Assembly: GCA_028819255.1 (NCBI GenBank)
Contig: JAPPMB010000147.1
Location: forward strand, 80,031-144,030
Direction: 5' to 3'
Source: Bryobacterales bacterium
GTDB lineage: Bacteria > Acidobacteriota > Terriglobia > Bryobacterales > UBA6623
Length of the DNA stretch: 64,000 nt
A program made the position numbers and the translations under genes. Each line of letters starts with the position of its first letter. The first letter of the stretch is position 1. Below, piece by piece: positions 8,536 through 41,419 of this stretch. The notes under the pieces are model-generated. The model was not told the DNA's origin. It was given only the letters and a program-made list of their open reading frames with translations, and did no database searches.

Positions 8536-9939
8536 TCAGCCTCCGGGACTGCCGCCCGGCGCGTCGATCCGGGACCGCAGAAGGCCCCGGGCGACGAAGA
8601 CCGCCGCACTGGCCGCAATGCCGGCGGGAACGGGCCCGAGCCAGCCGCCCAGCGCGTCCGGCACGAGGAGGGCAAGCCCGGCGGCCGCCAGCGAGAAGCC
8701 CATGGCTGCGAGGGCCGTAGCCTGTCCCGGCCGCCTCCAGTACAGTCCCGCCAGCAACGGCACGAACAGGGTGATCGTCAGCAGACTGTAGAAGAAGCCG
8801 AGCGCGGACAGGATCGACCGGAACCACCTTGCCAGAAGGATGCCCGCGAGGCCTGCGACCACAGCCGACAGTCGTGTCCGGGCGAGCAGCGCCGCGTCCC
8901 GCAGCCGCCCGCCGGACAGCGGCTCGATCACGTCCCGCGCCGCGGAGGTTGTGATCATGAAGAGCACGGCGTCGGCTGAGCTGATCTCCGCCGAGAAGAC
9001 CGCGGCGAGCATCAGGGCGCCAAGCCAGGTCGGAGCGGCCTCGCCGAGCAGCCGGATCAGCGCCAGGCCCGGATCGTCCAGGTCCGGGAAGTGGACGCGT
9101 GCGATCATCCCGAGCAGCACGGGAAGAAACGCGAATCCCAGCAGGGCAGCTCCCTGCAGCCCGACGCCTGTCCGGACGGCGGACTCGTCTCTTGCGCCGA
9201 ACAGTTTCTGGACAAGGCCGGGGGAGACCATGAAGGCAGGTGCCAGCATCAGGACCATTTGCGCGATCGCTGCGGATCCGGTCGCGTCGCGCGGCACTGC
9301 CTGGGCATTCGGTGCCGCTGCCGCCAGCCCGGCCCAGCCGCCGCCGGCCCGAAGCATCCAAGGCACCGCGATTGCGAATCCGGCCACCTTCACCACGACC
9401 TGCAGTGAATTGACCCACGCGGCCGACCGAAGGCCGCCCATCACGAAGTAGGCCGTTGCGACGCATCCGCCCAGCACAAGGCCCCATTGCTCGGGCACTC
9501 CGGCCACGACGCGCAACACCAGCCCGACCGCGATGATCTGGCCGGCTAGGATCGCGGGTGCGCCACAAAGCAGGATGACGGCGGCGACCAGACGCGTCGT
9601 CCGTCCGTAGCGCGCTTCAAGGAGATCGCCCACCGTGTACAGGCTGAGGCGGCTGGCGACACGGTGGAGACGGGGCCCGACCGCAAACGCAAGCAGCAGC
9701 GAGCCGATGCCGGCCGAGCCCACCCACCACCACGCAGCCAGGCCGTCCGTGTATCCGAACCCCGCCGCTCCCACGGTGCTCCCCGCCCCGAGATTCGCCG
9801 CCAGGAAGGTTGCGAAGACCAGGGACGGGGACAGGTTCCGGCCGGCGACGAAGAAATCCTCGGCTCGGCGGACGGAACGCGATGCGTACGCCCCGACGAG
9901 CAGCAGAAGAAGGCAGTACGCAATCAGGAAGACGAGCAT
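8536..9939 (-). CDS. sodium:solute symporter family transporter
   Basis: The N-terminus MLVFLIAYCLLLLLVGAYASRSVRRAEDFFVAGRNLSP is typical of the SSS family. The protein is polytopic throughout. Confidence 0.85.
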   Translation of the reverse strand: MLVFLIAYCLLLLLVGAYASRSVRRAEDFFVAGRNLSPSLVFATFLAANLGAGSTVGAAGFGYTDGLAAWWWVGSAGIGSLLLAFAVGPRLHRVASRLSLYTVGDLLEARYGRTTRLVAAVILLCGAPAILAGQIIAVGLVLRVVAGVPEQWGLVLGGCVATAYFVMGGLRSAAWVNSLQVVVKVAGFAIAVPWMLRAGGGWAGLAAAAPNAQAVPRDATGSAAIAQMVLMLAPAFMVSPGLVQKLFGARDESAVRTGVGLQGAALLGFAFLPVLLGMIARVHFPDLDDPGLALIRLLGEAAPTWLGALMLAAVFSAEISSADAVLFMITTSAARDVIEPLSGGRLRDAALLARTRLSAVVAGLAGILLARWFRSILSALGFFYSLLTITLFVPLLAGLYWRRPGQATALAAMGFSLAAAGLALLVPDALGGWLGPVPAGIAASAAVFVARGLLRSRIDAPGGSPGG

Positions 9940-10619
9940 GCCGAGGTTCAGGGACTACGGGATCTTGATTGTAGAGGTGTGCTGGCGGAGTTCCTGCGGG
10001 CCATGACCGCGCGAGCCCGTGCCAGCCCCTCCGCCCCTCCAACACTCCCGCGCCAAAGCCGCGAGAGAGTACATGTCCGCCCGTACGATTGCGATCCGCT
10101 CGAGGTGAGGGTTGCCGCGAACTCCACGTACCAAGAGAGCCTGACGTTCAACATTGAAGGCAATGGGTGCCCGCCATCGCCCGAATCCTGCACGATTCGA
10201 TCAAGAACGTGCTCTCGCCAACTCGAATAATGCATGGCGGCCCAAGCCAAGCGTCAGGCTTTCAAGTGCGCCCTCTCCACGTCCTTCGCCAGTGGCTCCC
10301 CCTCCTTCGGTCGCCTGAACTGACAGGAGAGTTGTCGCCAGAACCCCGTTGACACCGGTGTCTCGATGCCTCGCCGCAGTCGCATGCGTTTCAGACCGGA
10401 GGCAAACCGCCGGACCGACGGAACAGAGTTGGACGAGTCCATAGCTGTGCTCCCTTCCGAGCGATGGAGGAATGCGTCGGCAGCTAGGCTTCGGCCGCTT
10501 CGCAGCCGCAATCGGGCTACCCTGCACTCGCCGGGCCTCGCACGCTGCTACCGCAGCTCCCGCATCTCCGGAGTCTGCGAGGCGCCGCGGGCGGGCGGCT
10601 GGTTGCGTCTGCTACGATC

Positions 10620-10805
10620 AGGAGGCTCCGGGGTGCCCACTAGGGCCTAACAGGGAAGTCCGGTGGAAATCCGGCACGGTCCCGCCACTGTGAGCGGCGA
10701 GTCGCATCGACATGCCAGTGAGGTGATTGCCTTGCGAAGGCCGGTGCGACGAAGGCGAGGAGACTTCGCTTGAGCCGTTAGTCAGGAGACCTGCCCCGGT
10801 GCAGT
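10620..10805 (+). promoter_or_regulatory. cobalamin (B12) riboswitch aptamer
   Basis: It carries the conserved core AACAGGGAAGTCCGGTGGAAATCCGGCACGGTCCCGCCACTGTGA and the 3' element GTCAGGAGACCTGCC. The closing helix is CCGGGG (10628) with CCCCGG (10794). It lies upstream of a TonB-receptor remnant and btuFCD-like genes. Confidence 0.85.
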
Positions 10806-11163
10806 GTGCGCGCACGACTCCGCGAGGTACGGATGAGCGGCTTGAATGTTGGCTATGGCGGCCCGCCGGGAAGAGGCCCCGGTCGGGTCGTCTTCCATCC
10901 CACCGCTGACTCCACAAGTGGATTGCATCCGATTCCCGCATCGGGATCGACCTCAGGTGGAGTGCGCAGCATCCAATAGCCCGCGGAGACGGGCACGGAG
11001 GCAGCGTGAGCAGGAAATCCAGGCCCTGCAGAAGTCGGCGGGGCGTTCGACCGCACGGCTCCCGCTCAGCGGATTCAGCTTGGCGATTCGCCAGCAGGCT
11101 CCCTTGGACGGCCGCAGGTCGAGCGACGGACAGCTCTGCGTCGAAACGCACGGAGGCAACACG

Positions 11164-11881
11164 ATGCGACGCCGGTCTGGGCTCGGCTTGTGCGGTGTTT
11201 GCGGTTCCCGTGTTTCTGATCACGGCCGTCGTCGCGTCGCAGTTGCAGGCGGGCGGCCTGCTCGGGAGGGTCCTCGACCCGCATGGCGCCGCTGTTGTGA
11301 ACGCGCGGCTGCGCCTCTTCGACCGGGACGGCGGTACGGTTCGCAACGCCCGGAGCCGAATGGACGGGACATACGCGTTCCCCAACCTCCTTCCGGGCGA
11401 ATACCTCCTGGAGGGCGCAAAGCCCGCCGCGTCCCTGGCTGGATCGCGCGCCCTCAAAGTGGGCGGGCAGACACGACTCGACCTGGATCTAGCTGTCTCG
11501 GCATCCACCGTAGAGATTGTCGTCACTGCCTCCAGCACACCCGCTGCGCAGGCTGAGATTGCCAAAGCACTCGACGCCGCGCACGACGAGGAGATTGCCC
11601 TGCGCGACGAGTACTCGCTGGCGGAGGCCCTCCGCAGCACGCCAGGCGTGCGCGTACAGCAGTTGCGGGGTCCCGGGAGCCTCGCGACCATCCAGACTCG
11701 CGGACTGCGCACATACGACACGGCCTTGTATCAGGACCTGCTGCTCTTTGACACCGACCGGGTCGAGTTCATGCGCGGCTCCGGCTCCTCGCTCTACGGA
11801 TCCCACGCGCTCGGCGGAGCAATACGCGCAGGGGTACGTATTCTTGGGTCCGTACCCCAGCCACTTGTGGAGATCGCATGA
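11164..11881 (+). pseudogene. TonB-dependent receptor remnant (frameshifted N-terminus, CarboxypepD_reg plus partial plug, no beta-barrel)
   Basis: GGAGG followed by the ATG at 11164 opens MRRRSGLGLCGV in one frame. The signal-peptide remainder and receptor domains (FAVPVFLITAVVASQLQAGGLLGRVLDPHGAAVVNARLRLFD..., TRGLR..., RVEFMRGSGSSLYGSHALGG) lie in the next frame (track ORF 11006..11881). That ORF stops right after the plug and overlaps the next gene. Confidence 0.7.
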
Positions 11882-12858
11882 GCTCCGCATCACGAATCGT
11901 TCTTGCCTTGCAGATGGCCGCATGCGCGCTGCTGCTCGCCGCCGCCTTTCGGTTCGTTGGAGGAGCGCCCGCGGCACTTTCCCGGGAGCCCGAAGCCCCA
12001 TCGACCGTGACCGGCGACGCCTTCCCACGTGTCGTCCGGGACGCGCACGGCGACACACTGAGGCTGGAACAGCCGCCCGCGAGACTCGGCTCACAGGCCT
12101 TGTCCACAGACGAGTTCCTGTTCTCCATCGTCCCCGCCGCCCGCATCGTCATCGCGAGTCCGTATGCCGCTGATCCCCGCTACAGCTTCGTCGCCGACCT
12201 TGCCGGAGCGACGGACCCGGCGAAAGCGACGGATCCGGAGTCGATCGTGCTCCGCAGTCCCGAGGTGTTGTTCGTTTCCCACACGGCGCGCGCCGAGTAC
12301 GTCGAGCAGGTCCGAGCATCCGGGATACCTGTGTTCCGCATGACCACGGTCTTCGAGCAGCTGGAGCAGATCGCATCGGCATTGCGCGTGACCGGATCCA
12401 TCGTTGGCGAAGACGAAGCCGCCGAGCGCGAGATAAGGCGTTTCCTAGAACGGATTCGCGCCGCCAAGGAGCTTGCCGCTCCGGGAGACAAGCCTGCCCG
12501 GATCCTTGCCTTCTCGAATCTTGCCCATACGTTTGGAGCGGGTTCCCTGTTCGATCGAATCGTCACGGATCTCGGAGCCGTCAACGTTGCCGCCGAACAG
12601 GGAGTCGGCCCGTACGGCTCAATCACCAGCGAGCAGGTCGCGGCGTGGAATCCGGACTGGATCGTGGCGGGCGTGGAGCCCGGCCGTGCGACGACAGAGC
12701 GCGACCGCCTCCGTGCTGATCCCGGAATCGCTGTGACGCATGCCGGGCGCGAGGGCCAGATCCTGCTCATCGAGAATCGCGCCTACCTGTCCATGTCCCA
12801 CCATGCCGTGGTCGTCATGGAGATGCTGGCTGCGGCTCTTCACGGAGGGAAGCGGTGA
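11878..12858 (+). CDS. btuF: ABC transporter periplasmic substrate-binding protein (BtuF/FhuD-type)
   Basis: It has a signal peptide (MSSASRIVLALQMAACALLLAAA) and a type-2 periplasmic binding-protein layout. It lies in a 4-nt-overlap chain with the permease and ATPase genes, downstream of a cobalamin riboswitch. Confidence 0.7.
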   Translation: MSSASRIVLALQMAACALLLAAAFRFVGGAPAALSREPEAPSTVTGDAFPRVVRDAHGDTLRLEQPPARLGSQALSTDEFLFSIVPAARIVIASPYAADPRYSFVADLAGATDPAKATDPESIVLRSPEVLFVSHTARAEYVEQVRASGIPVFRMTTVFEQLEQIASALRVTGSIVGEDEAAEREIRRFLERIRAAKELAAPGDKPARILAFSNLAHTFGAGSLFDRIVTDLGAVNVAAEQGVGPYGSITSEQVAAWNPDWIVAGVEPGRATTERDRLRADPGIAVTHAGREGQILLIENRAYLSMSHHAVVVMEMLAAALHGGKR

Positions 12859-13934
12859 GTCGGGCCCTCGATTCCCTGGCGGCGTTTGCCCGATCGCGAG
12901 CGGCGCCCCTGTACTTTCTTTCCGCTGCGGCGGCTCTGGCGGTTGCAGCCGTCGCGGGCGTCGCCCTCGGCAGCACCGAGATCGGATGGGAGTCCGTGCT
13001 CAGGACGGTCTTCTCGAAGTTCCTGCCCGAGGGATGGATCGACCTTGGCGGAGTCACCGAGGCCGAGCGGGTGATCATCTGGCAGATCCGAATGCCCCGC
13101 GTCATCGTGGGCGGACTGGCAGGCTGCGGGCTGGCGGTCGCGGGGACGCAGGTGCAGGCAGTGTTCCGGAATCCGCTGGCCGAGCCGAGTGTGATCGGAT
13201 CCAGCCAGGGGGCGGCGCTCGGGGCCGTCACTGCGTTCGTCACCGAACTGGCGACGCGTTCGGCGCTCTGGCTGCCGCTGTTCGCCTTCAGCGGAGCGCT
13301 GATTGCACTGTTCACCGTCTATGCCGTGGCAAGCAGGGCCGGGCGGACGCCGGTTGCGACGCTGCTGCTGGCGGGCATCGCTCTCGGCTCACTGATCTCC
13401 GCCGCCACCTCGATGCTGATCTCCCTGAACTTCGTGAACTGGCAGGTAGCCTCGGAGATCGTTTTCTGGATGATGGGCGGCCTCGACGGCCGCACTTGGA
13501 CTCACGTGTGGATTTCCGCGCCCCTGGTCGCGATCGGCGCTTCGGTTGCGTTCTGGTACGTCCGGGATCTCGACCTGATGCTTCTAGGGGAGGAGGCCTC
13601 GGCCTCGCTCGGGGTCGAGGTCGAGCAGGTCAAGCGGTCGGTCCTCGCAACGGCCGCGCTGCTGACCGGCACCGCGGTCGCCGTGAGCGGAGTGATCGGC
13701 TTCGTGGGCCTGGTCGTGCCTCATGTCATTCGGATCCTGCTGGGACCGGCGCATAGAGCGCTGCTTCCCGCGAGCATTCTGTCCGGAGCAGCGTTCCTGA
13801 TCGGTTGCGACATCCTTGCCCGCACCGTCTACGCGCCCACCGAGCTGAGGCTCGGCGTCGTGACTGCTCTGTTCGGAGCGCCGCTGTTCCTTTATCTGCT
13901 CCGTCGCAAGCGCATGGAGGTCGCCGTCCTTTGA
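12855..13934 (+). CDS. btuC: FecCD/BtuC-family ABC permease
   Basis: Family pattern is present: IIWQIRMPRVIVGGLAGCGLAVAGTQVQAVFRNPLAEPSVIGSSQGAALGA ... GVIGFVGLVVPHVIR. About ten hydrophobic helices. Confidence 0.85.
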   Translation: MSRALDSLAAFARSRAAPLYFLSAAAALAVAAVAGVALGSTEIGWESVLRTVFSKFLPEGWIDLGGVTEAERVIIWQIRMPRVIVGGLAGCGLAVAGTQVQAVFRNPLAEPSVIGSSQGAALGAVTAFVTELATRSALWLPLFAFSGALIALFTVYAVASRAGRTPVATLLLAGIALGSLISAATSMLISLNFVNWQVASEIVFWMMGGLDGRTWTHVWISAPLVAIGASVAFWYVRDLDLMLLGEEASASLGVEVEQVKRSVLATAALLTGTAVAVSGVIGFVGLVVPHVIRILLGPAHRALLPASILSGAAFLIGCDILARTVYAPTELRLGVVTALFGAPLFLYLLRRKRMEVAVL

Positions 13935-13957
13935 CGATCAGGCTGGATCGCGCCGGC

Positions 13958-14770
13958 ATGCGGATTCGGCGGAACTGGCTGGTGCGGGATGTCTCGATGG
14001 TAGTCCGCCCGAACCGGATCACCGCCCTCGTCGGCCCCAACGGATCCGGAAAATCGACGGTGCTGCGGCTTCTGGCAGGCCTGTGGCAGCCTTCCGAGGG
14101 CCGCGTACTGGTCGATGGTTCGGACATGGCGAGTCTCGGTCGGCGGGACCTTGCCCGTCAAGTCGCATTCGTTCCGCAGAATCCGCGCATAGACGTGCCG
14201 TTCACGGTCAGGCACGTCGTCAGCATGGGCCGCCATCCGCATCTCGGCAGGTTCGAATCCGCCGGGCCGCGCGATCTGGAGGTTGTCGAGTCGGCGCTCG
14301 CCCGAGTCGACGTCCTGCACCTTGCCGAGCGCCGCGTCAACGAGCTGTCCGGGGGCGAATTCCAGCGGGTCGTCGTCGCGCGCAGCCTGGCGACCGAAGC
14401 CGATGTGATCCTGCTTGACGAGCCGACATCCAACCTCGATCTGGACCATTCCCTGGAGACTCTCGAACTGCTGCGCCGGCTGGCTGAGGACGGCAAGGCA
14501 GTCGCCGCAGCCTTGCATGACCTGAATGCTGTGGCTCGCTGGGCGGATCACGCGACGCTGATGCATCGTGGTCGCCTACGTGCGCACGGGCCCGTCGGCC
14601 AGGTGCTTGCCGACGAGCAGCTCGTGCCGGTCTTCGATGTCGACATCGAGCGCCTGCAGACCTCGCACGGGGTGCCCGACCTGGTGTTCCATCGTCGAAT
14701 CCATCGTTCCGGGGAATCGTCGCGGGCCGAGCGAGGCCGTGATGCCGACGAGAACCGCTTGCCCGGGTAG
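13958..14770 (+). CDS. btuD: ABC transporter ATP-binding protein (BtuD/FepC-type)
   Basis: Walker A GPNGSGKST, signature LSGGEFQRV and Walker B ILLDEPTSNLD are present. A TTG at 13931 that overlaps the permease stop is an alternative start. Confidence 0.88.
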   Translation: MRIRRNWLVRDVSMVVRPNRITALVGPNGSGKSTVLRLLAGLWQPSEGRVLVDGSDMASLGRRDLARQVAFVPQNPRIDVPFTVRHVVSMGRHPHLGRFESAGPRDLEVVESALARVDVLHLAERRVNELSGGEFQRVVVARSLATEADVILLDEPTSNLDLDHSLETLELLRRLAEDGKAVAAALHDLNAVARWADHATLMHRGRLRAHGPVGQVLADEQLVPVFDVDIERLQTSHGVPDLVFHRRIHRSGESSRAERGRDADENRLPG

Positions 14771-15105
14771 CTCATCGGACCCTGTTGTCGAGACGGCAGG
14801 CGATCCCGTTCAGCGGCTCGACGATCACCCGATGCTCCGGTGAGAGCCTGCCGATTTCCTCATGACGGGTGTCCGGATCGTGCGGTGTGGCTCTCCGTGC
14901 ATCCCGTGACAGTGCCAAGCCCACGCCGGGAGAGCCACTGGCCGGTGGCTGAGATTGCGCCACCCGCTCTTCGCAGGTCAAACGGTCCTAGACACCCGGA
15001 CTCTGCCAACTTGCCGCGCATGGTCTTGTCGCCCTACCTCCACGCTGCACGCACAGGGCCACAGGTTCCGTCTCGGCCCGTTGGGGCAATCGAGGCGGCG
15101 AGGCC

Positions 15106-15576
15106 CTACCGGCGCGCCGCATCGCCGACCGACGACAGGTTCTTCAGAACTCCCATGACGAACGGAATGCAGACGAGCGGCAGGTAGAGGTCGGATGCCC
15201 GGTCCTGGATGGCAGCGCCGGTTTCCCAACGGCCCAAGGCGGCCTCGGCGATGGCGGCGGCCTCGGCGAAAGCGGCCCTGGTCATTCCGTGTTGTTCCCG
15301 GACCCCACGGACTTCAGCCGGGGTCAGCACTCCGAGGTGGCGGCACACGAATGCGTGACGCAGCCGCTCGCCGACATGGTCAATGTACTCGGTCCCACAG
15401 TCCATGCAGCGTCGGACGGGCAGTTCGACCCGCAGTGTTGCCGCAGAATCGCCTAACCCGTAGATGAATTCGTCGGTATGCCGGAACGTGTGGATCGACC
15501 TGCTGTCGCAGAGCGGACAAGTATGGGCTTCCACCGCAGCGCGAACGGAGAATCGAGTCTTGTCGTCTGGTTCCAT
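15106..15576 (-). CDS. MqsA/YgiT-like zinc-ribbon plus XRE-HTH protein (antitoxin-like), with hydrophobic C-terminal tail
   Basis: GAGGA sits 9 nt before the ATG at 15576. The protein has two Cys pairs (CPLCDS ... CMDCGT) followed by an HTH (LTPAEVRGVREQHGMTRAAFAEAAAIAEAALGRWETG). The extra tail is LYLPLVCIPFVMGVL. Confidence 0.7.
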   Translation of the reverse strand: MEPDDKTRFSVRAAVEAHTCPLCDSRSIHTFRHTDEFIYGLGDSAATLRVELPVRRCMDCGTEYIDHVGERLRHAFVCRHLGVLTPAEVRGVREQHGMTRAAFAEAAAIAEAALGRWETGAAIQDRASDLYLPLVCIPFVMGVLKNLSSVGDAARR

Positions 15577-15911
15577 GTTCCGTAGTCCTCGGAGCAATGA
15601 AAGGTGCGCCCGAATGCCTTCTTCGTCCCACTTACCGGCTTCGCGCACAGTTCGGGCAATCTCGATCCGAGACCGACATTGATGGACTGGCCGTTCTTGC
15701 CCGGCGGCTACTTAGACTCGATTATTGTCACCTCGCAGCCAACCTCCGGTCTCGCGGCCATGAACTCCCGTGCCGTCGCGCTTGTGCGGCAGGGAGCAAG
15801 CACCCCGTCGGGGCTGGGAACCTGGTCGGCCGCCACCGCTGGGGCCGCGCTGCCGAGAAAGCCTCATCCCGAGTTCTCGGGTGGAGCGAGCCCCGATGGA
15901 CGCAGTCGGCT

Positions 15912-17501
15912 TCAGACGCCCCACACGTCTATGCGCACCTCTCCCAATGGCTCCTGCCGATGAAAGAGGCGCTGGGACCATGTCCTGTTCGGTCGGAGTT
16001 CGAAGACCACCAGATGCCCCTCGTCCGCACCGGCGACGTCCATGTACTCCCCGGTCTGCCGCACGCCCTGGGCGATGACGGCTTCCAGGCTGCGTCCGGG
16101 CCGGAGCACCTTGCACTCGATCACGTACCGTGCCTCACCGCCCCCGGGCGGGCGCCAGACGACGAGCAGGTCCGTCCGCGGCCGGCCGACGCCGAATTCG
16201 CGCTCGATGCGGCCGCCGCTGTTGACCAGCCGCTGGAGGAAGGCCTGCAGGATCAGCTGCGGGCCGGCCTCGCGGTAGCCGAACCGCTCCACCCAGTGCT
16301 CGGAATGGTCGCGGAAGAAGCCTTGGAAGTGCTGCATCAGGCGCCTGAGGTCGAGAGACCCATCGAACCTGAGGTAGGAGCCTGGCCGGATGAATCCCGC
16401 CAGCCGGCTCTGCAGCACCGAGGTGAGCTGCCTGGGGACCACCTCGCGGTAGATGGGGTTCGCGATTCGGACGGGGTCGTCCGGGGCGATCAGTCCCAGA
16501 TCGCGGACGTACTCCATGTCCTCGTCGGACCAGTCGGGTTCGAGGCTTCCCTCCAGCAGGGGTTCGATGACGCGCCTGACGCGGTCCTCGGAGAGTCTGG
16601 CGGCGAGCTGGTCGAGGTGGGTGACCCTTCCGACGATGAGCGTCTCCCTGGCCCGGTCGATGGATTCTGCCCCGATCGGCCGGCTGCGGTCCCGTCCCGC
16701 CTTGTCTTCGAAGCAGGCCTCGAGGGCCAAGGCGTTGACCAGCCAAGGCTGGCCGCGAGTGAGCTCCCAGATCCTCTCCACCGCGCCCGCTTCGAACTCC
16801 TGGCCGGTCTCGGCAGTGTGCTGGCCCAGCAGCGAGCGCACCTCGTCCTGCGTGAAGTCTCCCAGCCGCAGGGACTTGGCCCTGATGTTGAAGGCGCTCC
16901 CCCCGGTGACGCTGGCGCCGAGCGAACTCGAATAGATGCGGTAGTCGCGCACATCACGCACGCCGCACAGGATCACGCTCTGCGGGAAGCCGTCAGGCCG
17001 CTCGTCATAGCCGGCGCGGAGCTGCCGCAGCACGGAGATCAGCGAGTCGCCTTCCAGGCTGTCGATTTCGTCGATCAGCAACACCAGCGGCTTCTCTCGA
17101 GCGCTCGCCCAGCGGGCCAGGGTCTCGTTAAGCGCACCGTGGCCCCCGTGCTCCTCCAGCACGTTAAGCCGGACATCCCTGACGAATGTGTCCTGCAGCA
17201 TCTTCTCCGCACGTCTTGCGATCTGGCCCAGAAGCACTCGCATCGCCTCTGGCACGTCCTCACGCGCTGTCTGGCCGACCTCGAAGTTCGCGTACACGCA
17301 GCCGTACTTGCCTGTGGCGTTGAGCGTGTCGGCGAGAGCCTTGAGCGTCGAGGTCTTGCCGGTCTGGCGGGGGGCATGGAGGACAAAGTACTTTCTCCTC
17401 CGGATCAAATGCAGAATTTCGTCCCGATCCACGCGCTCCAACGGAGGGATGCAGTAGTGGATGCTGGGATCGACCGGGCCCTCGGTGTTGAAGTCTTTCA
17501 T
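15912..17501 (-). CDS. AAA-like ATPase fused to a C-terminal PD-(D/E)XK-type nuclease fold
   Basis: Walker A is HAPRQTGKTS and Walker B is LVLLIDEIDSL. The C-terminus GRPRTDLLVVW...ARYVIECKV fits the D...E.K nuclease signature. The ATG at 17501 (MKDFNTEGP) lies inside track ORF 15912..17780. Confidence 0.7.
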   Translation of the reverse strand: MKDFNTEGPVDPSIHYCIPPLERVDRDEILHLIRRRKYFVLHAPRQTGKTSTLKALADTLNATGKYGCVYANFEVGQTAREDVPEAMRVLLGQIARRAEKMLQDTFVRDVRLNVLEEHGGHGALNETLARWASAREKPLVLLIDEIDSLEGDSLISVLRQLRAGYDERPDGFPQSVILCGVRDVRDYRIYSSSLGASVTGGSAFNIRAKSLRLGDFTQDEVRSLLGQHTAETGQEFEAGAVERIWELTRGQPWLVNALALEACFEDKAGRDRSRPIGAESIDRARETLIVGRVTHLDQLAARLSEDRVRRVIEPLLEGSLEPDWSDEDMEYVRDLGLIAPDDPVRIANPIYREVVPRQLTSVLQSRLAGFIRPGSYLRFDGSLDLRRLMQHFQGFFRDHSEHWVERFGYREAGPQLILQAFLQRLVNSGGRIEREFGVGRPRTDLLVVWRPPGGGEARYVIECKVLRPGRSLEAVIAQGVRQTGEYMDVAGADEGHLVVFELRPNRTWSQRLFHRQEPLGEVRIDVWGV

Positions 17502-17905
17502 GCCCACCCGGAGCATTGCGTGCGGTTCATTTAAGCATTGTCCACTCTGCGATTCGTCCCGCCACCCGGGCGGGCGGTTGCCGATCCGGGAAAACCAGGC
17601 ATCCCGATCCCGTCTCTGGCTCGCATGCCGCGCCGGAGGCGCAAGGCCGCTGCCGATTCGCAACTTCGCGAACAGTTCCTTGCGGGATCCATGGGCACAG
17701 CGGCCGGTCAGGCTGCTCCCGCACACGGTCCCGCCGCCACCCGGCCCCGGACTCCGGGCCGGATCCCTGCTTGGAGACATCTCGGAGCCCAGTGCTCAGC
17801 AAGTCCCTGCACCTGGCACGTTGGCACAGCATTCAATGCGACTCGGAGCCGGTTCCCCAAGCCGGGACCGGGAAGCGGCGGCTTGGAGCCGAAGGTGAGG
17901 GCAAG

Positions 17906-17983
17906 TGGTGTCCCCAGCGGGATTCGAACCCGCGTTGCCGCCGTGAAAGGGCGGTGTCCTAGGCCGGGCTAGACGATGGGGAC
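17906..17983 (-). tRNA. tRNA-Glu(UUC): tRNA-Glu (anticodon UUC), CCA encoded
   Basis: The minus strand reads GTCCCCATCGTCTAGCCCGGCCTAGGACACCGCCCTTTCACGGCGGCAACGCGGGTTCGAATCCCGCTGGGGACACCA. All four cloverleaf stems pair, and the anticodon loop is CTTTCAC. Confidence 0.95.
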
Positions 17984-18069
17984 GCGAGTTGCGGGTGCCC
18001 TAAGGGCCAACTAAGCTGATTCTAGCACGCGGACCCCGACCTGCTGGCCGGAAGCCCAAGACGTGATGA

Positions 18070-19536
18070 CTACCGCATCGCGAGCTCGGATTCTTCAACG
18101 ACGATGGGCCGGGAAGCGATCAGATCCCCCGCGCTCAGGCCGGCTCCCACAACGGCTTCCGTATCGCTGACGGACACGAGTTCCACGGGACGTCTCACGA
18201 ACTCGTCTCCGGATCCCTTCACCCACACGGCCGGCTGGCCGTCGGAGTGATCCAGGCTGGCTCGGGGAACCACGAGCACATTCTCCAGCTCCTCGATGAT
18301 GACGTCGCCCGAAGCCGACAGATCAGGCTGGATGCGCTCGTCGCTCGCAAGGATCTCGATTTCCACGGGAACCTGCTTGATCCACTCGCCGCGCGATCCC
18401 GAGGATCCCGGTGGGCCGCGGCGGCCCCCGCCGCCCCCGCCGCCAGACACGGCCATCGCGCCGACGGAGCTGACGCGTCCCTCGAACACGACGTCCGGAT
18501 AGGCGTCGAGCTGGACCTTGACCGGAACTCCTAGCCGAACCAGCTGGCTGTCCGCCTGGTTCAGGTTGGCGAACACAGCCATGTTCGACAGATCGACCAC
18601 CCGCATGAAGAAGGCTCCGCCATAGATCTGGTCTCCGGGTGAAGCCTGTTGGAAGTTCCCCCGCTGGAACATCGTCTCGATCACGACCAGACCGCCCACA
18701 GGCGTCCGAATCCGCATCTTCTCAAGGTCGGAACTCGTCCGGTCCATGCGCTTCTGGTCCTGCTCGACCGTCAGGTCCAGGCTCCGCGATTCCGCCTCGT
18801 TGGCAAGCTCCTGCAGTTCCACCTCTCTCCTGAGCTGGTCCGTGGAGGCTCGGCCCTCCTGTGCCATGAGATCGAAGATCTCGGCCTGAATCGCGGACCT
18901 CACCTCGGCCGTCTGCAGGTCCAGCTCGGACTTCTCCGCCTCGGACTTCGTTGTCCTGAAGTCCTGCCGAAGCGTCTCGGTGGCGATCAGGATCTCCGCC
19001 TTCCGGGTGCCCGCCTCGGCTCTCGTCTGGGCCAGCATGGAGGAATACGTGTCGAGCTTGTCCTGCGTGTCCTTGGACTCGAACTCTGCGACCACTTCCC
19101 CCGCCTGGACGACGGTGCCCGCTTCGGCAAGCGTCTGGATCGTCAGCGAAGATCCGCCTCCGCGGTCCCGTCCGCCGCGCATGCGGGGAGCGCGGATCAT
19201 TGCGAAATTGGTCGCACCGACCGTGCCGCCGATCCGAATCGAACGCCGGAAGTCCCGCTTCTCGGCCACGACCGTTGCGACCGCCGATGGCGCGGCCACT
19301 GCCTGGTCGACGCCCGAAGACCGGGTGGACTGGAACACGCCAAGACCCACGGCCGCTCCTAGGACGACCAAAACGCCGACACCCCAAGGCGGCAGGCCGG
19401 GTTTTTCCGCCTGCGGGTCGGGAACGACTTGCGGACCGGGTCCCGGTCCCGGCTCGGCTTGAGGCGCCGGTTGCGCGGACGCAAAGAACCGAGGCACCGT
19501 CAGCCACGAAAGGGGTGTATGTGCAGCATCTTGCAT
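18070..19536 (-). CDS. HlyD/MacA-family membrane fusion protein (periplasmic adaptor)
   Basis: It has an N-terminal anchor, a lipoyl-like hairpin (GTVVQAGEVVAEFESKD), a long coiled coil and a beta-barrel part (IRTPVGGLVVIE). A Gly/Arg-rich insert is present (GGGGGGRRGPPGSSGSRG). Confidence 0.8.
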   Translation of the reverse strand: MQDAAHTPLSWLTVPRFFASAQPAPQAEPGPGPGPQVVPDPQAEKPGLPPWGVGVLVVLGAAVGLGVFQSTRSSGVDQAVAAPSAVATVVAEKRDFRRSIRIGGTVGATNFAMIRAPRMRGGRDRGGGSSLTIQTLAEAGTVVQAGEVVAEFESKDTQDKLDTYSSMLAQTRAEAGTRKAEILIATETLRQDFRTTKSEAEKSELDLQTAEVRSAIQAEIFDLMAQEGRASTDQLRREVELQELANEAESRSLDLTVEQDQKRMDRTSSDLEKMRIRTPVGGLVVIETMFQRGNFQQASPGDQIYGGAFFMRVVDLSNMAVFANLNQADSQLVRLGVPVKVQLDAYPDVVFEGRVSSVGAMAVSGGGGGGGRRGPPGSSGSRGEWIKQVPVEIEILASDERIQPDLSASGDVIIEELENVLVVPRASLDHSDGQPAVWVKGSGDEFVRRPVELVSVSDTEAVVGAGLSAGDLIASRPIVVEESELAMR

Positions 19537-19935
19537 GATTGCTTCCGACCAGCCCTAGGTCTTCAAAAGTATAAGGCGATTCTGATACGCCTTGGTTATG
19601 GGACCTGTGCCGCCTTTCGCCCGTGAACGTCACGTTGCGCACACACGCACAGACGGGTTTCCGGATTCCCCGGCACGCGGCGCGGACCGCATGCTTGCCG
19701 GGGACCCCCCGGGGACGTTCCTGCGCAGTGCGGACCGCACAGTCCCGGGGTGCCGGGTGCGCGGCGCACCCGGCGATGGTGCCACAATGAGTAGGCCTGA
19801 GTGCATGACCCGTCCGCGTTGCGCTCGACGGAGGTTCGCGCTCCTACCCGGCTATCAGCACTCTTCGCGGGCACGTCCCGCGGCCAGAAAGCACGCCCCA
19901 TGCCCACCCAGCTCCCGCGTCCACCCTGCCGTTCC

Positions 19936-21798
19936 ATGGACTCTCGCCTGTTGGCCGTCGCGGTGCTTGCGGCGGTTCTCGTCCCGCTCCCGCTCCTGGC
20001 CACTCCCGCCGAGCGGCAATCCGAGGCTGTTGAGCGATACATGGAGCACGTGCGGTTCCTTGCCTCTCCCGAGATGCGCGGGCGAGGGCCCGGCATGCCC
20101 GAACTCGATGAGGCGGCGGACTACATCGCCGGACGGTTCCGCGAACTTGGGCTGCAGCCCGCCGGCGACGACGGCAGCTTCCTGCAACCGTTCGAGGTGA
20201 CGACCGGCGCAAACATGGGGCAAGGCAACTCCATGCGGGTTGAGCGGCCCCGCGGCGTGAGCGAGCTCGAGGTGGGCAAGGACTTCATTCCCATCAACTT
20301 CTCCGCCAGCGGAGAGGTCGAGGGCGAGGTCGTCTTCGCCGGGTACGGCGCCTCGGCGGAGGAACTCGGCTACGACGACTACTTTCACTTCGACGTCACG
20401 GACAAGATCGTTCTCGTCCTTCGCTACGAGCCCGACTTCTTTCGCGAAGAAGATGACGGCGAGGGAGACAGGGGCGACAGCGAGCGCGGGCGCCGCTACA
20501 CGCGTCACGCGCACCTGATCGCGAAGGCGATCCAGGCCCGCAATCGAGGCGCGAGGGCGGTCCTGGTCGTAGACGGCCGGACGCGGGGAAGGTCTAGGGA
20601 CCGGCTGATTCGCTTCGGAAGCGTCTCCGGCCCGACCGACGCGGGCATTCCGATGGTTCAGGTCCGAAGGGAGGTTGCCGAGCGGTGGCTCAGGGGATCG
20701 GGCCGGTCGCTCCGCCTGCTGCGAAGGGACATCGAGGAGTCCAGGCGACCCCAGACCTTCAATCTCGCGTCATCCTTGCGGATCAGGCTGTCTGTGGATG
20801 TCGAGCACGAGCGCGCAACCGTGAGCAACGTCGCCGCCTACCTTCCCGGCTCGACCCCGGACTACGTCGTGCTCGGCGCTCACTACGACCACCTCGGCCT
20901 TGGAGGCGAGAACTCGCTCTCCCCGTCGAGCGTCGGCAAGGTCCATCCGGGCGCGGACGACAACGCCTCCGGCGTCGCGGCGATTCTGGAGTTCGCCCGC
21001 ACCCGCTCCGCCCGCGGCGAAGAGCCGCGCCACGGCCTGCTCTTCCTCGCGTTCGCGGCCGAGGAGATCGGGCTGCTCGGATCCGGTCACTGGGTGGACA
21101 ACCCGACGCTGCCGCTCGAGAACGCCGTGGCCATGCTGAACTTCGACATGGTCGGCAGGATCCAGAACCGCAAGCTGTATGTCGGGGGCGTCGGCACCGC
21201 CGGGCCGTTCGCCGATCTTGTCGAGCAGGCAGCCTCCGAGCACGAGCTGAAGGTCGACAAGTCCCGCAGCGCCTCCAGCTCCAGCGACCACACTTCGTTC
21301 TCGGCAAAGAAGATCCCTGTCCTGTTTTTCTTCTCGGGGCTGCACTCCGACTATCACAAGCCCGGCGACACTCCCGACAAGATCAACGGCGAGGCCGCTG
21401 TTGATCTGCTCGGCGTCGCCGACCGCATCGTCCACGGCATCGAGGCCTTGGACGATCGCCTGGCGTTCGTCGACAAGGCGCCGGAGTCCGGCCACGGCCG
21501 TCCGTCCGGAGACGGGGCGAGCAGCGGCGGCTACGGACCCTGGTTCGGCTCGATCCCGGACTTCGGAGAGGTGCCCAGCGGCGTCAAGTTCGCTGACGTG
21601 CGCACCGGGTCCCCGGCGGCGCTGGCCGGTCTCCGCGGCGGAGACATCCTGACCCACTGGAACGACGCGCCGATCACGAACCTCTACGACTTCACCTACG
21701 CCCTTCGGGACTCCGAGGTCGGCGAGGTTGTCAGGGTCCGCGTGCTGCGCGACGGCGAGGAAGTCAGGTCGGAAGTGACCTTGGCGGAGCGTCCGTGA
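19936..21798 (+). CDS. M28-family aminopeptidase with C-terminal PDZ domain
   Basis: It has a signal peptide (MDSRLLAVAVLAAVLVPLPLLA) and M28 metal-site motifs (GAHYDHLG, HPGADDNASGVAAILE, LFLAFAAEEIGLLGS, SDHTSF). The PDZ-like end is GSPAALAGLRGGDILTHWND. The start (19900 or 19936) is uncertain. Confidence 0.85.
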   Translation: MDSRLLAVAVLAAVLVPLPLLATPAERQSEAVERYMEHVRFLASPEMRGRGPGMPELDEAADYIAGRFRELGLQPAGDDGSFLQPFEVTTGANMGQGNSMRVERPRGVSELEVGKDFIPINFSASGEVEGEVVFAGYGASAEELGYDDYFHFDVTDKIVLVLRYEPDFFREEDDGEGDRGDSERGRRYTRHAHLIAKAIQARNRGARAVLVVDGRTRGRSRDRLIRFGSVSGPTDAGIPMVQVRREVAERWLRGSGRSLRLLRRDIEESRRPQTFNLASSLRIRLSVDVEHERATVSNVAAYLPGSTPDYVVLGAHYDHLGLGGENSLSPSSVGKVHPGADDNASGVAAILEFARTRSARGEEPRHGLLFLAFAAEEIGLLGSGHWVDNPTLPLENAVAMLNFDMVGRIQNRKLYVGGVGTAGPFADLVEQAASEHELKVDKSRSASSSSDHTSFSAKKIPVLFFFSGLHSDYHKPGDTPDKINGEAAVDLLGVADRIVHGIEALDDRLAFVDKAPESGHGRPSGDGASSGGYGPWFGSIPDFGEVPSGVKFADVRTGSPAALAGLRGGDILTHWNDAPITNLYDFTYALRDSEVGEVVRVRVLRDGEEVRSEVTLAERP

Positions 21799-37763: not shown

Positions 37764-38017
37764 GTCGGAGCCGCGCGACGATCGGTGCGGCTGTCTCCCC
37801 AGAAGCTATCCTACTTGGCTCTGCCCGATTGGATCCCCTCGCCTCCGATCCGTGATCCGCAGGAGGGCCACTCTCCCTTCGCGCCTCCTGCAGTCGTCAG
37901 GACGGCGAGCGCCCGCCAAAAGCCCAGGTCGTATCCCGGACGCTCGACCCGAGGATAAGAGAAATGCGCGAGGCTTCCTGCATCCTCGGCGGTTTGCGAG
38001 GTGGAGGTTCGGGTGCT

Positions 38018-41317: not shown

Positions 41318-41419
41318 AGGCCGTTCCTGTCGTACACGAGGATCTGGTCCGCGCCGCTGGAATCGAGGACCGGCAGGGACGCGCGGCTGTCCTTGTACTC
41401 TGAGCGGCGAGGGCCGATT

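What the first reader, a model, noticed from the sequence alone, without database searches (positions are those of the whole stretch)
14771..17983. Accessory islet wedged between btuD and the 3' end of tRNA-Glu
The 3.2 kb between the btuD stop and tRNA-Glu(UUC) holds only two genes. Both are typical of mobile or defence contexts: an ATPase/PD-(D/E)XK fusion and an MqsA-like Zn-ribbon HTH. There are also three stretches of 330-400 nt with no convincing ORF.

tRNA 3' ends are classic integration sites. On the other side of the tRNA, an MFP gene (18070..19536) lacks its usual ABC partners, as if an operon had been interrupted.

I saw no integrase and no convincing direct repeat of the tRNA 3' end. 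The only candidates are weak 7-nt matches such as GGTGTCC near 14868. If this was an island, it is eroded.
Basis: inference. Interest (0 to 1): 0.55.

Follow-up and report, generated by a model that had tools for sequence, protein, structure and literature searches.

The report
Decayed accessory slot beside tRNA-Glu
The DNA next to this tRNA-Glu gene is a real variable "slot" that related Bryobacterales genomes fill with different toxin-antitoxin or defence-type genes. Here it holds one intact ATPase-nuclease gene, the wreck of a three-gene toxin-antitoxin-like module and a vitamin-B12 uptake operon. This is an ordinary kind of genome hotspot, seen in a little-studied phylum.

Summary
tRNA-Glu(UUC) lies at 17906-17983 (-). 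An intact AAA+/PD-(D/E)XK gene lies at 15912-17501, and an MqsA-like Zn-ribbon/HTH gene at 15106-15576. There is no integrase and no repeat of the tRNA end.

Comparison with nine related Bryobacterales loci supports the "islet" reading but moves its edge. M28 peptidase, MFP and tRNA-Glu are conserved. In two genomes the tRNA is followed within 63-88 nt by a sodium:solute symporter gene. In the window that gene starts at 9939, so about 7.97 kb (9940-17905) is variable, including the B12 riboswitch and btuB'FCD. Other genomes carry PemK/HTH-M78, PIN/Phd/HicB-like or a DEAD-box helicase in the same slot.

The ORF-free stretches are decay products:
- 15585-15836 is a nonsense-mutated pseudogene of a small protein that normally precedes the MqsA-like gene.
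- 15134-15153 is the junction of a ~2 kb deletion. It removed a KGGVGR-motif ParA-like ATPase and the MqsA-like C-terminus.
- btuB is truncated.

The ATPase-nuclease is a self-contained, multi-copy cassette found in defence islands elsewhere. The MFP "interrupted operon" idea is refuted. Verdict: an integrase-less tRNA-flanked toxin-antitoxin/defence hotspot, a new member of a known kind.

The parts
18070..19536 (-). Membrane-fusion (HlyD-type) protein gene. It is the conserved right-hand flank together with the M28-PDZ peptidase gene (19801-21798, +).
   Evidence: Pfam HlyD_D23/HlyD_3. The order M28, MFP, tRNA-Glu is conserved in L001-L003, L005, L006, L008 and L012.
17906..17983 (-). tRNA-Glu(UUC), CCA encoded. 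Its 3' end is the right boundary of the variable slot.
   Evidence: ARAGORN; Rfam RF00005, 59.7 bits; sequence.
17571..17905 (.). Non-coding spacer between the tRNA 3' end and the ATPase-nuclease cassette. It is specific to the window's close relatives.
   Evidence: 99.4% identical to L008 and 90% to L012, with no match in L001-L006. No Rfam hit at E<=1.
15880..17570 (-). Single-gene cassette encoding an ORC/Cdc6-like AAA+ ATPase with winged helix, fused to a C-terminal PD-(D/E)XK nuclease domain. The CDS is 15912-17501 (ATG, 529 aa) or 15912-17507 (GTG, 531 aa). In 529-aa numbering: Walker A K49, Walker B D144/E145, nuclease triad D444...E462-x-K464.
   Evidence: Pfam AAA_22/AAA_16/AAA_35. 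Invariant residues in 47 homologues. AF2 model with pLDDT 75 hits Cdc6 1fnn (E 7.5e-7) and PAB2304 2qen. C-terminal model with pLDDT 86 has an alpha-beta-beta-beta-alpha-beta core, and its best fold hits are PD-(D/E)XK nucleases, though weak (best E 5.5e-3). PDDEXK_9 scores only 13.3 bits. Paralogues at other loci share about 45-60 nt upstream and about 30 nt downstream of the CDS.
15585..15836 (-). Pseudogene of 'p90', a small uncharacterised protein that in intact modules lies directly upstream of the MqsA-like gene (putative toxin partner). It carries an AAG-to-TAG nonsense codon (K*PP, about 15708-15710). The normal stop is lost and conserved LYVKLEL residues are altered.
   Evidence: tblastn with L014 p90: 49% identity over 80 aa, E 2e-19. 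Translation. The p90 family and its co-occurrence with MqsA-like genes.
15106..15576 (-). MqsA-like Zn-ribbon (CPLC...CMDC) + XRE-HTH gene, 156 aa from the ATG at 15576. A GTG at 15648 would give 180 aa. About 34 C-terminal residues are missing and the tail is replaced, compared with intact 185-193 aa homologues.
   Evidence: TIGR03830 E 4e-12, 46 bits, below the 61.8 cut-off. HTH_31/HTH_3. Homologues are typically 185-193 aa. Alignment to the L014 protein stops at residue 151.
15134..15153 (.). Deletion junction. About 2 kb present in L014 (L014 6424-8412) is replaced here by 20 nt. The lost DNA held the end of the MqsA-like gene and a 607-aa KGGVGR-motif ParA/CbiA-like ATPase with TPR repeats.
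   Evidence: blastn of L014 against the window. NF047398 167 bits for the L014 protein. PADLOC PDC-M28B 113 bits. The pair is conserved with a 5-nt gap in L015-L017.
14771..15133 (.). Spacer distal to the btuD stop. In L014 the homologous spacer lies between the KGGVGR-ATPase gene and btuD.
   Evidence: 99.4% identical to L008, 91% to L012, about 70% but alignable to L014. No ORF with homologues.
11878..14770 (+). btuF (11878-12858), btuC (12855-13934) and btuD (about 13958-14770): a corrinoid-type ABC importer. It lies inside the segment that L001 and L002 lack.
   Evidence: Pfam Peripla_BP_2, FecCD, ABC_tran. NCBIfam best hit is corrinoid ABC ATPase, below the equivalog cut-off. Absent from the slot in L001-L006.
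11006..11881 (+). Truncated TonB-dependent receptor (btuB-like) gene. Only the CarboxypepD_reg and Plug domains remain. The barrel (1.78 kb in L008) is deleted.
   Evidence: Pfam. L008 and L012 have intact 803/796-aa genes. The deletion is mapped by blastn. The same truncated allele occurs in L014 at 98.4% identity.
10614..10812 (+). Cobalamin riboswitch heading the btuB'FCD operon.
   Evidence: Rfam RF00174, 98.3 bits, E 4.7e-24.
9940..10613 (.). Non-coding left end of the variable slot. In L008 part of it is replaced by about 1.5 kb carrying an unknown ORF.
   Evidence: blastn against L008. ORFs of L008.
8536..9939 (-). Sodium:solute symporter (SSF) gene, the conserved left-hand flank of the slot.
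   Evidence: tblastn gives 63-82% identity in L001-L003, L005 and L006. The start codon lies 88 nt (L001) or about 63 nt (L002) after the tRNA. Pfam SSF in L008.

Best explanation
The interval is the tRNA-proximal part of a variable slot, 7.97 kb in the window (9940-17905). The slot is bounded by two conserved features: the 3' end of tRNA-Glu(UUC) and the start of a sodium:solute symporter gene. No integrase is present.

In Bryobacterales this slot behaves like the defence and toxin-antitoxin hotspots bounded by core genes that are described in E. coli and Pseudomonas. It is empty in some genomes and holds unrelated small toxin-antitoxin or defence-type cargo in others.

In the window's lineage it holds three things:
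1. A riboswitch-controlled B12 uptake operon whose receptor gene is truncated.
2. The remnant of a three-gene module: p90 small protein, MqsA-like Zn-ribbon/HTH protein and KGGVGR-motif ParA-like ATPase. The p90 gene is a nonsense pseudogene, the HTH protein has lost its C-terminus and the ATPase is deleted.
3. One intact, self-contained cassette for an ORC/Cdc6-like AAA+ ATPase fused to a PD-(D/E)XK nuclease.

Shown: the polymorphism, the boundaries, the decay events, the domain make-up and the multi-copy nature of the cassette.

Inferred:
- Cargo is gained, lost and swapped by homologous recombination in the conserved flanks plus illegitimate deletions and IS activity, not by tRNA-directed site-specific integration.
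- The ATPase-nuclease is a single-protein defence effector that assembles on nucleic acid using ATP and cuts it.
- The truncated MqsA-like protein survives, if at all, as an orphan repressor.
For: Polymorphism and boundaries:
- M28, MFP and tRNA-Glu are conserved in related genomes.
- After the tRNA, L001 and L002 continue within 88 and about 63 nt into the SSF gene, which in the window starts at 9939.

Different cargo in the same slot:
- L003: PemK toxin, HTH/Peptidase_M78 and a HEPN fragment.
- L006: HicB-like, PIN and Phd.
- L005: DEAD-box helicase, plus a Fic gene between the MFP gene and the tRNA.

Mobility hallmarks are absent:
- No att-like repeat in the window or in any relative.
- No integrase among the ORFs.
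- Composition is native.

Decay:
- L014 keeps p90, MqsA-like (185 aa) and the KGGVGR ATPase (607 aa) between the ATPase-nuclease gene and btuD, plus two IS4 transposases.
- The window has the p90 nonsense pseudogene and a 20-nt junction in place of about 2 kb.
- btuB is truncated, as in L014, but intact in L008 and L012.

Recombination:
- The window is 99-99.9% identical to L008 except across about 9940-12000. There it is 84-88% identical to L008 but, across the part L014 covers (11006 onward), 98.4-99.4% identical to L014.

Cassette behaviour:
- At least 12 paralogue clusters appear to sit on one 4.38-Mb contig and at least 7 on a 7.06-Mb contig.
- Three paralogues lie in tandem inside a BREX/AbiE/AriA-like island.
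- A solo copy lies between housekeeping genes in L009-L011. In L022 that exact site holds a Schlafen-type helicase matching candidate defence model PDC-S41 at 404 bits.

Domains.

Concept of tRNA-flanked hotspots without identifiable mobilisation: PMC10250203 and PMC10121019.
Against: - The direction of events is inferred from only nine relatives without a phylogeny. Deletions in L001 and L002 could mimic an 'empty' site.
- The DEAD-box helicase in L005 and the btu operon are not defence genes, so the slot is not purely a defence hotspot.
- The ATPase-nuclease matches no PADLOC model convincingly (mad8, 15.9 bits). Its defence role rests on neighbourhood only.
- Fold matches for the nuclease domain are weak (best E 5.5e-3).
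- The identity mosaic could partly be a chimeric metagenome assembly.
- I did not confirm that L014 has the tRNA upstream, because the locus ends 69 nt before the ATPase gene.
Confidence: 0.72

Rival explanations
1. Classical tRNA-targeted integrative element. A phage, satellite or integrative mobilisable element inserted into the 3' end of tRNA-Glu using an integrase. It later lost the integrase and its distal att repeat.
For: The cargo abuts the tRNA 3' end, a preferred integrase target (background cited in PMC10250203 and PMC10121019). The contents are visibly decayed.
Against: No integrase remnant and no partial tRNA copy exists in the window. None exists in any of five other occupied or empty versions of the site either. 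The cargoes are small (1.8-2.7 kb) unrelated modules rather than variants of one element. Composition is native. The other boundary coincides with the start of a core gene, not with an att repeat.
Confidence: 0.1
2. Ancestral region, differential loss. The btu operon and its neighbours were originally at this site. Other lineages deleted them and later picked up toxin-antitoxin genes.
For: Native composition and codon usage. B12 uptake is a metabolic rather than a mobile function. Deletions clearly occur in the slot.
Against: Five of the six species-level relatives keep the tRNA-Glu/SSF slot, and none of them retains any btu, MqsA-like or ATPase-nuclease fragment there; L004 is rearranged after the MFP gene. 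Two have near-minimal spacers of 63-88 nt. The ATPase-nuclease is at 83-86% identity to copies at unrelated loci in other genomes, which indicates recent spread.
Confidence: 0.1
3. The ATPase-nuclease is itself a selfish mobile gene. Its AAA+ and PD-(D/E)XK domains would mobilise a 1.7-kb cassette, broadly like TnsC/TnsA. On this view it colonised the tRNA flank on its own, and the rest of the slot is unrelated.
For: It is multi-copy and dispersed, often as a solo gene between housekeeping genes. Short flanks are conserved at both ends of the unit.
Against: Paralogues are 60-86% identical rather than near-identical copies. No terminal inverted repeats or target duplications were seen in the flank alignments. 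The conserved 5' flank looks like a leader or promoter. The site occupied in L009-L011 holds a different defence-type gene in L022, which fits cassette replacement better than transposition. In the window, 335 nt of unrelated DNA separate it from the tRNA.
Confidence: 0.08

Closest known systems
Core-gene-flanked defence hotspots (P. aeruginosa cDHS1/cDHS2; E. coli tRNA-associated hotspots)
   Same: Conserved flanks, one of which is a tRNA gene. The site is empty or occupied. Unrelated defence or toxin-antitoxin cargo occurs in different genomes. Many instances have no identifiable mobilisation genes, and flank recombination is the proposed route (PMC10250203, PMC10121019).
   Different: Here the slot is small (0.06-11 kb) and lies in Acidobacteriota (Bryobacterales). 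It also holds a metabolic operon (B12 uptake). Its cargo is largely decayed. Only about ten genomes were sampled, not hundreds.
MqsR/MqsA type II toxin-antitoxin system
   Same: The 156-aa protein has the MqsA layout: an N-terminal CxxC...CxxC zinc ribbon and a C-terminal XRE-type HTH. A small gene precedes it, in the toxin-first order typical of mqsRA.
   Different: The score is below the TIGR03830 cut-off. Intact modules carry a third gene, a KGGVGR-motif ATPase with TPR repeats. In the window the toxin candidate is a pseudogene and the HTH protein is truncated.
DUF1703 proteins (AAA-ATPase_like PF09820 + PDDEXK_9 PF08011)
   Same: The same two-part architecture: an N-terminal P-loop ATPase and a C-terminal PD-(D/E)XK domain. 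Lineage-specific expansions to tens of divergent paralogues are seen. Function is unknown (PMC6387759).
   Different: There is no PF09820 hit, and PDDEXK_9 scores only 13.3 bits against a cut-off of 25.5. The ATPase here is closest in fold to Cdc6/Orc1 and Arch_ATPase-type proteins.
PADLOC candidate system PDC-M28 (component B)
   Same: The KGGVGR ATPase that the window has lost matches PDC-M28B at 113 bits.
   Different: It is only a candidate system, and no function has been shown. The p90 and MqsA-like partners match no PADLOC model. The gene is absent from the window.

Membership tests
tRNA-targeted integrative island (prophage, satellite, ICE or IME) | Tyrosine or serine recombinase gene at the tRNA-proximal end | tested here: not met
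   Every ORF of 9940-17905 that has homologues is accounted for: btuB', btuFCD, the MqsA-like gene, the p90 pseudogene and the ATPase-nuclease. None is a recombinase.
tRNA-targeted integrative island (prophage, satellite, ICE or IME) | Direct repeat of the tRNA 3' end (attL/attR) at the far boundary | tested here: not met
   A 25-mer with up to 3 mismatches is found only in the tRNA. Exact matches of 11 nt or more occur at chance level in the window and in L001-L006. The repeat finder found nothing.
tRNA-targeted integrative island (prophage, satellite, ICE or IME) | Atypical base composition relative to the host | tested here: not met
   Tetranucleotide z from -1.3 to +0.6. GC and GC3 match the neighbouring genes.
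Core-gene-flanked defence/toxin-antitoxin hotspot | Conserved flanking genes with a variable interior across genomes | tested here: met
   M28, MFP and tRNA-Glu on one side and the SSF gene on the other in L001-L003, L005, L006 and L008; in L012 the same order was seen but the locus ends before the SSF gene. The slot is 63 nt to about 11 kb long.
Core-gene-flanked defence/toxin-antitoxin hotspot | Unrelated cargo, enriched in toxin-antitoxin or defence genes, at the same site | tested here: met
   PemK + HTH/M78 + HEPN (L003). HicB-like + PIN/Phd (L006). Fic and DEAD-box helicase (L005). MqsA-like remnant + AAA+-nuclease (window). The helicase and the btu operon are exceptions.
MqsRA toxin-antitoxin system | Antitoxin with an N-terminal Zn ribbon and C-terminal HTH that reaches the family threshold | tested here: inconclusive
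   TIGR03830 E 4e-12 but 46 bits against a cut-off of 61.8. The intact L014 homologue scores 59.4 bits, also below the cut-off.
MqsRA toxin-antitoxin system | MqsR (RelE-like RNase) toxin encoded upstream | tested here: not met
   The upstream p90 family has no Pfam, NCBIfam or PDB sequence match. The window copy is a pseudogene.
PD-(D/E)XK nuclease superfamily (C-terminal domain) | D...(D/E)xK motif on an alpha-beta-beta-beta-alpha-beta core | tested here: met
   D453, E471 and K473 are conserved in at least 90% of 47 homologues (D453 in all; A2 numbering; D444/E462/K464 in the 529-aa protein). The AF2 C-terminal model (pLDDT 86) has that topology. The top fold hits are restriction enzymes, Cas4, EndoMS, CidB, DdmD and Mus81, but with weak E-values of 5.5e-3 or worse.
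DUF1703 (PF09820 + PF08011) | Pfam matches above the gathering score for both domains | tested here: not met
   No PF09820 hit. PF08011 scores 13.3 bits against a cut-off of 25.5.
ORC/Cdc6-type AAA+ ATPase (N-terminal part) | Walker A GKT/S, Walker B DE, AAA+ lid and winged-helix fold | tested here: met
   Invariant G57-K58-T59 and D153-E154. The best fold hits are Cdc6 1fnn (E 7.5e-7), PAB2304 2qen, clamp loaders and RuvB.
Known anti-phage systems (PADLOC-DB v2) | Significant match of the ATPase-nuclease or the MqsA-like protein to a defence model | tested here: not met
   Only mad8 at 15.9 bits, E 0.0018, with no stretch passing on its own. Nothing for the MqsA-like protein.
Riboswitch-controlled BtuBFCD B12 uptake locus | Cobalamin riboswitch, TonB-dependent receptor, and binding protein/permease/ATPase genes | tested here: inconclusive
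   Riboswitch at 98 bits. FCD-type genes are present. The receptor lacks its barrel, so the locus is incomplete in the window.

The most novel reading that the evidence does not exclude
Two uncharacterised systems meet at this site.

1. The ORC/Cdc6-like AAA+ / PD-(D/E)XK cassette may be a diversifying single-gene immune family in Bryobacterales, or alternatively a selfish nuclease gene. It is expanded to at least 12 paralogues per genome and comprises about 960 clusters at 50% identity in public data (E<=1e-30). It would be analogous to the unexplained DUF1703 expansions in symbionts.

2. The conserved trio of p90, an MqsA-like HTH protein and a KGGVGR-motif ParA-like ATPase with TPR repeats may be a new tripartite toxin-antitoxin or defence system. 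The p90 gene is repeatedly knocked out by nonsense mutations (in the window and in L015-L017), as expected for a toxin.
Probability: 0.3. Interest if true: 0.6.

Novelty: new member of a known kind. Interest (0 to 1): 0.35.

Why it matters
- It extends the picture of defence and toxin-antitoxin hotspots that lack integrases and sit beside tRNA genes. That picture comes from well-sampled Proteobacteria; here it appears in Acidobacteriota known mainly from metagenomes.
- It gives a worked example of how such a slot decays: a nonsense mutation in the putative toxin, deletion of the partner ATPase, IS insertion, and recombination patches.
- It flags two untested gene families for experiment: the expanded AAA+-nuclease cassette and the p90/MqsA-like/KGGVGR-ATPase trio.
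- For annotation, it shows that the "empty" stretches are pseudogene and deletion scars. It also shows that the B12 receptor gene of this strain is broken.

Tried and rejected
- Repeat searches for an att site (repeat finder, a 25-mer with mismatches, k-mer extension, and the same in five relatives) returned only chance matches.
- Rfam at E<=1 over 10-22 kb found only the tRNA and the cobalamin riboswitch, so the spacers hold no known RNA.
- Consensus promoter and terminator scans of 14600-18100 found nothing.
- Composition and codon analysis gave no foreign signal.
- NCBIfam gave no family for the ATPase-nuclease. PADLOC gave only an insignificant mad8 hit.
- PDB sequence searches with the protein and with a 47-sequence profile gave nothing useful.
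- p90 was tested as an MqsR relative by Pfam on 33 members, by a PDB profile search and by hhalign. No relationship was found.
- Literature searches for 'KGGVGR' (0 papers) and 'AAA_35' (irrelevant hits) were unproductive.
- The idea that the islet interrupted the MFP operon was rejected on synteny.
- The idea that the btuB truncation is an assembly artefact was rejected, because L014, an independent assembly, has the same allele.
- A metagenome scan for an empty-site allele of the L009-type cassette insertion found instead a site occupied by a different gene (L022), so target-site duplication could not be assessed.

Full report
**What is in the interval**

The window is high-GC (0.665) DNA. 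Its closest public relatives are metagenome-assembled Bryobacterales (Acidobacteriota).

tRNA-Glu(UUC) lies at 17906-17983 on the minus strand and encodes its CCA. Its 3' end therefore faces lower coordinates.

Between it and the btuD stop (14770) there are two intact genes, both on the minus strand.
- **ATPase-nuclease, 15912-17501** (ATG, 529 aa; NCBI's pipeline uses the GTG at 17507 in the 99% identical protein P0001). It hits AAA_22, AAA_16, NPHP3_N and, just below threshold, AAA_35.
- **MqsA-like gene, 15106-15576** (156 aa; a GTG at 15648 would give 180 aa). It has a CPLC...CMDC zinc ribbon and an XRE-type HTH. It matches TIGR03830 (MqsA family) at E 4e-12 but 46 bits, below the 61.8-bit cut-off.

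Three stretches have no intact ORF: 14771-15105, 15577-15911 and 17502-17905.

There is no integrase. No repeat of the tRNA end exceeds chance. Composition and codon usage match the surroundings.

**Comparison with relatives: the slot is real, but wider than described**

A scan with the MFP protein returned six species-representative Bryobacterales genomes, L001-L006, at 67-77% protein identity.

M28 peptidase and MFP are conserved in all six. tRNA-Glu follows the MFP gene in five.

None has btuD, the MqsA-like gene or the ATPase-nuclease next to the tRNA.

In L001 and L002, synteny resumes immediately after the tRNA with a sodium:solute symporter (SSF) gene. Its start lies 88 nt and about 63 nt from the tRNA end. 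In the window that gene is 8536-9939.

Relative to those genomes, the window therefore carries 7,966 extra bases (9940-17905), made up of:
- a 674-nt spacer;
- a cobalamin riboswitch (10614-10812; RF00174, 98 bits);
- a truncated TonB-dependent receptor gene;
- btuF, btuC and btuD;

The same slot holds other cargo elsewhere.

| Locus | Slot length | Cargo |
|---|---|---|
| L003 | 2.7 kb | PemK/MazF toxin, HTH + Peptidase_M78 protein, HEPN fragment |
| L006 | 2.2 kb | HicB-like protein, PIN/Phd pair; further PIN and nucleotidyltransferase genes one gene further on |
| L005 | 1.8 kb | DEAD-box helicase; a Fic gene also sits between the MFP gene and the tRNA |

L004 is rearranged directly after the MFP gene.

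No locus has a partial tRNA copy.

This is the signature of a flexible hotspot bounded by conserved genes, as described for P. aeruginosa cDHS and E. coli tRNA-associated hotspots. Many instances of those also lack identifiable mobilisation genes (PMC10250203, PMC10121019).

The MFP gene is monocistronic and followed by the tRNA in every relative that has the tRNA. The suggestion of an interrupted operon is therefore not supported.

**Close relatives explain the ORF-free stretches**

Three near relatives share the window's layout.

| Locus | Source | Identity to window | Notes |
|---|---|---|---|
| L008 | GCA_028824065.1 | 99.6% over 15.7 kb | Intact btuB (803 aa) |
| L012 | independent assembly | 93-96% | Intact btuB (796 aa) |
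| L014 | 1.85-Mb contig | 96-97% | Least-decayed version of the module |

L014 keeps a less decayed version. Between the ATPase-nuclease gene and btuD it has:
- two IS4 transposase genes;
- a 90-aa gene (p90);
- a 185-aa MqsA-like gene 15 nt downstream of p90;
- 5 nt further on, a 607-aa protein with a KGGVGR-motif ParA/CbiA-type ATPase domain and TPR repeats (NF047398, 167 bits). It also matches the PADLOC candidate PDC-M28B at 113 bits.

The MqsA-like + KGGVGR-ATPase pair recurs with the same 5-nt spacing on unrelated contigs, L015-L017.

p90 homologues lie upstream there too. They also share at least ten contig lengths with MqsA-like homologues in the two protein searches.

In the window:
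- **15585-15836 is a p90 pseudogene.** It is 49% identical to L014 p90 (E 2e-19). It has an AAG-to-TAG nonsense codon, a lost stop codon and altered conserved residues.
- **L014 positions 6424-8412 are replaced by 20 nt (15134-15153).** This removes the ATPase and the last ~34 residues of the MqsA-like protein.
- **14771-15133 is the old spacer next to btuD**.
- **17571-17905 is lineage-specific non-coding DNA.** It lies between the tRNA and the conserved leader of the ATPase-nuclease cassette.

Further left, the receptor gene keeps only its CarboxypepD_reg and Plug domains (ORF 11006-11881). A 1.78-kb deletion removed the barrel that L008 and L012 still have. L014 carries the same truncated allele at 98.4% identity, so this is not an assembly error.

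"Eroded" is therefore correct, and the individual lesions can be named.

**Evidence on how the slot changes**

The window is 99-99.9% identical to L008 from the M28 gene to btuC, and again in the SSF gene. Across about 9940-12000 the picture changes.
- There it is only 84-88% identical to L008, or cannot be aligned.
- Across the part L014 covers (11006 onward), it is 98.4-99.4% identical to L014.

The simplest reading is a homologous-recombination patch that brought in the truncated-btuB allele. A chimeric metagenome assembly is the caveat.

Add the IS4 insertions in L014, the two independent deletions, and a 1.5-kb replacement near the SSF gene in L008. Together these point to recombination in conserved flanks plus illegitimate events, not site-specific integration. 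This step is inference.

**The ATPase-nuclease**

*Sequence motifs.* Forty-seven homologues at 61-86% identity show several conserved motifs:
- an invariant Walker A (GKT);
- an invariant Walker B (DE);
- a conserved D...E-x-K triad near the C-terminus (D invariant, E and K in at least 90% of sequences).

*Structure prediction.*
- An AlphaFold model of the full protein (pLDDT 75) matches Cdc6/Orc1 best (1fnn, E 7.5e-7). It also matches the archaeal Walker ATPase PAB2304, clamp loaders and RuvB.
- A separate model of the last 153 residues (pLDDT 86) has the alpha-beta-beta-beta-alpha-beta core of PD-(D/E)XK nucleases. Its hit list is dominated by PaqCI, Cas4, EndoMS, EcoO109I, the R2 endonuclease, CidB/CinB, DdmD and Mus81. 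The E-values are weak, 5.5e-3 at best.
- Pfam gives only a sub-threshold PDDEXK_9 match.

*Family size and copy number.*
- The family has about 960 clusters at 50% identity at E<=1e-30.
- It is strongly multi-copy in Bryobacterales. At least 12 clusters share the contig length 4,384,823 and at least 7 share 7,061,630. Attributing them to single contigs is an inference from identical lengths.

*Genomic behaviour.*
- Paralogues at different loci share about 45-60 nt upstream and about 30 nt downstream of the CDS. The unit is thus a ~1.7-kb single-gene cassette.
- An 86% identical copy sits with two further paralogues inside an island holding BrxC (1253 bits), an AriA-like/DUF4276 pair, AbiEii and a DUF4143 ATPase.
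- 83-85% identical copies sit alone between housekeeping genes. In L022 that same site holds a Schlafen-type helicase matching PDC-S41 at 404 bits instead.

*Interpretation.* These neighbourhoods and the site replacement suggest a defence role. No known defence model matches, however, and nothing here tests activity. The closest described analogue is the DUF1703 family, which has the same architecture, similar unexplained expansions and unknown function (PMC6387759). The Pfam thresholds for that family are not met.

**The putative toxin-antitoxin remnant**

p90 belongs to a family of 76 clusters, typically 117-134 aa, with conserved GYVM, LYVKLELG and GRSFHYSE motifs.
- It has no Pfam, NCBIfam or PDB sequence match.
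- It shows no profile similarity to E. coli MqsR (probability 0.5%).

The module should therefore not be filed as MqsRA. It has an MqsA-like DNA-binding component, a toxin-first gene order, and a third gene for an ATPase.

p90 is interrupted by nonsense codons at different positions in the window and in L015-L017. That is what one expects of a toxic gene, but it is only suggestive.

**Verdict**

It is best described as the tRNA-proximal part of a hotspot that lacks an integrase and is bounded by tRNA-Glu and a symporter gene. The btu operon lies inside the variable segment.

This is an ordinary phenomenon in bacterial genomics, documented here in an under-studied phylum. Hence modest interest (0.35) and the rating "new member of a known kind". 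The more novel leads are the expanded AAA+-nuclease cassette and the p90/MqsA-like/KGGVGR-ATPase trio. Both need experiments.

Noticed in passing
window 10614-10812 (+): Cobalamin riboswitch (RF00174, 98 bits) heads the btuB'FCD operon.
   Followed up: yes
window 11006-11881 (+): The TonB-dependent receptor gene downstream of the riboswitch is truncated to its CarboxypepD_reg + Plug part by a 1.78-kb deletion. It is intact in L008 and L012, and the same truncated allele occurs in L014. B12 uptake through this locus may be impaired in this strain.
   Followed up: yes
window about 9940-12000, compared with L008 and L014: There is a sharp identity mosaic. The window is 99-99.9% identical to L008 elsewhere but 84-88% here, and 98.4-99.4% identical to L014 from 11006 onward (L014 is not held left of 11006). 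This is either a recombination patch or a strain chimera in the assembly.
   Followed up: partly
window 38000-41500; ORF 39183-40733 (-): A lower-GC (0.62), compositionally deviant stretch (z up to 2.7) contains a 516-aa Fic/DOC-domain protein and ORFs with no Pfam hit. It may be another accessory patch in the window.
   Followed up: partly
window 60500-64000; ORF 61157-63955 (-): This is the strongest tetranucleotide deviation in the window (z 3-3.7). It coincides with a 932-aa TonB-dependent receptor (OMP_b-brl_4, 799 bits) next to a patatin-like phospholipase gene (59024-60742). The cause is probably protein composition rather than foreign origin.
   Followed up: partly
L015 4717-4980, L016 315-578, L017 312-575: The p90 homologue upstream of intact MqsA-like + KGGVGR-ATPase pairs carries an in-frame stop at a conserved tyrosine codon (KG*VMKID). 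This is a different position from the window's nonsense codon. The three contigs may represent one strain.
   Followed up: partly
L007 7820-13699: Three paralogues of the ATPase-nuclease lie side by side (two direct, one inverted). They are embedded between AbiEii/DUF4143-ATPase genes and a BREX locus with an AriA-like/DUF4276 pair.
   Followed up: partly
L008 18793-20145 (+): A 450-aa ORF with no Pfam or PADLOC match occupies the SSF-proximal end of the slot in L008. Only the last 137 aa are called as a gene. The window has 300 nt of unrelated sequence there instead.
   Followed up: partly
L022 7347-9236 (-): A 629-aa protein with an N-terminal PD-(D/E)XK-like motif and a Schlafen group 3 helicase domain (PADLOC PDC-S41, 404 bits) occupies exactly the intergenic site that holds an ATPase-nuclease paralogue in L009-L011. 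That makes a second 'replacement' hotspot.
   Followed up: partly
L014 2019-5193: Two IS4-family transposase genes are inserted between the ATPase-nuclease and the p90/MqsA-like module in this relative. They are absent from the window.
   Followed up: no
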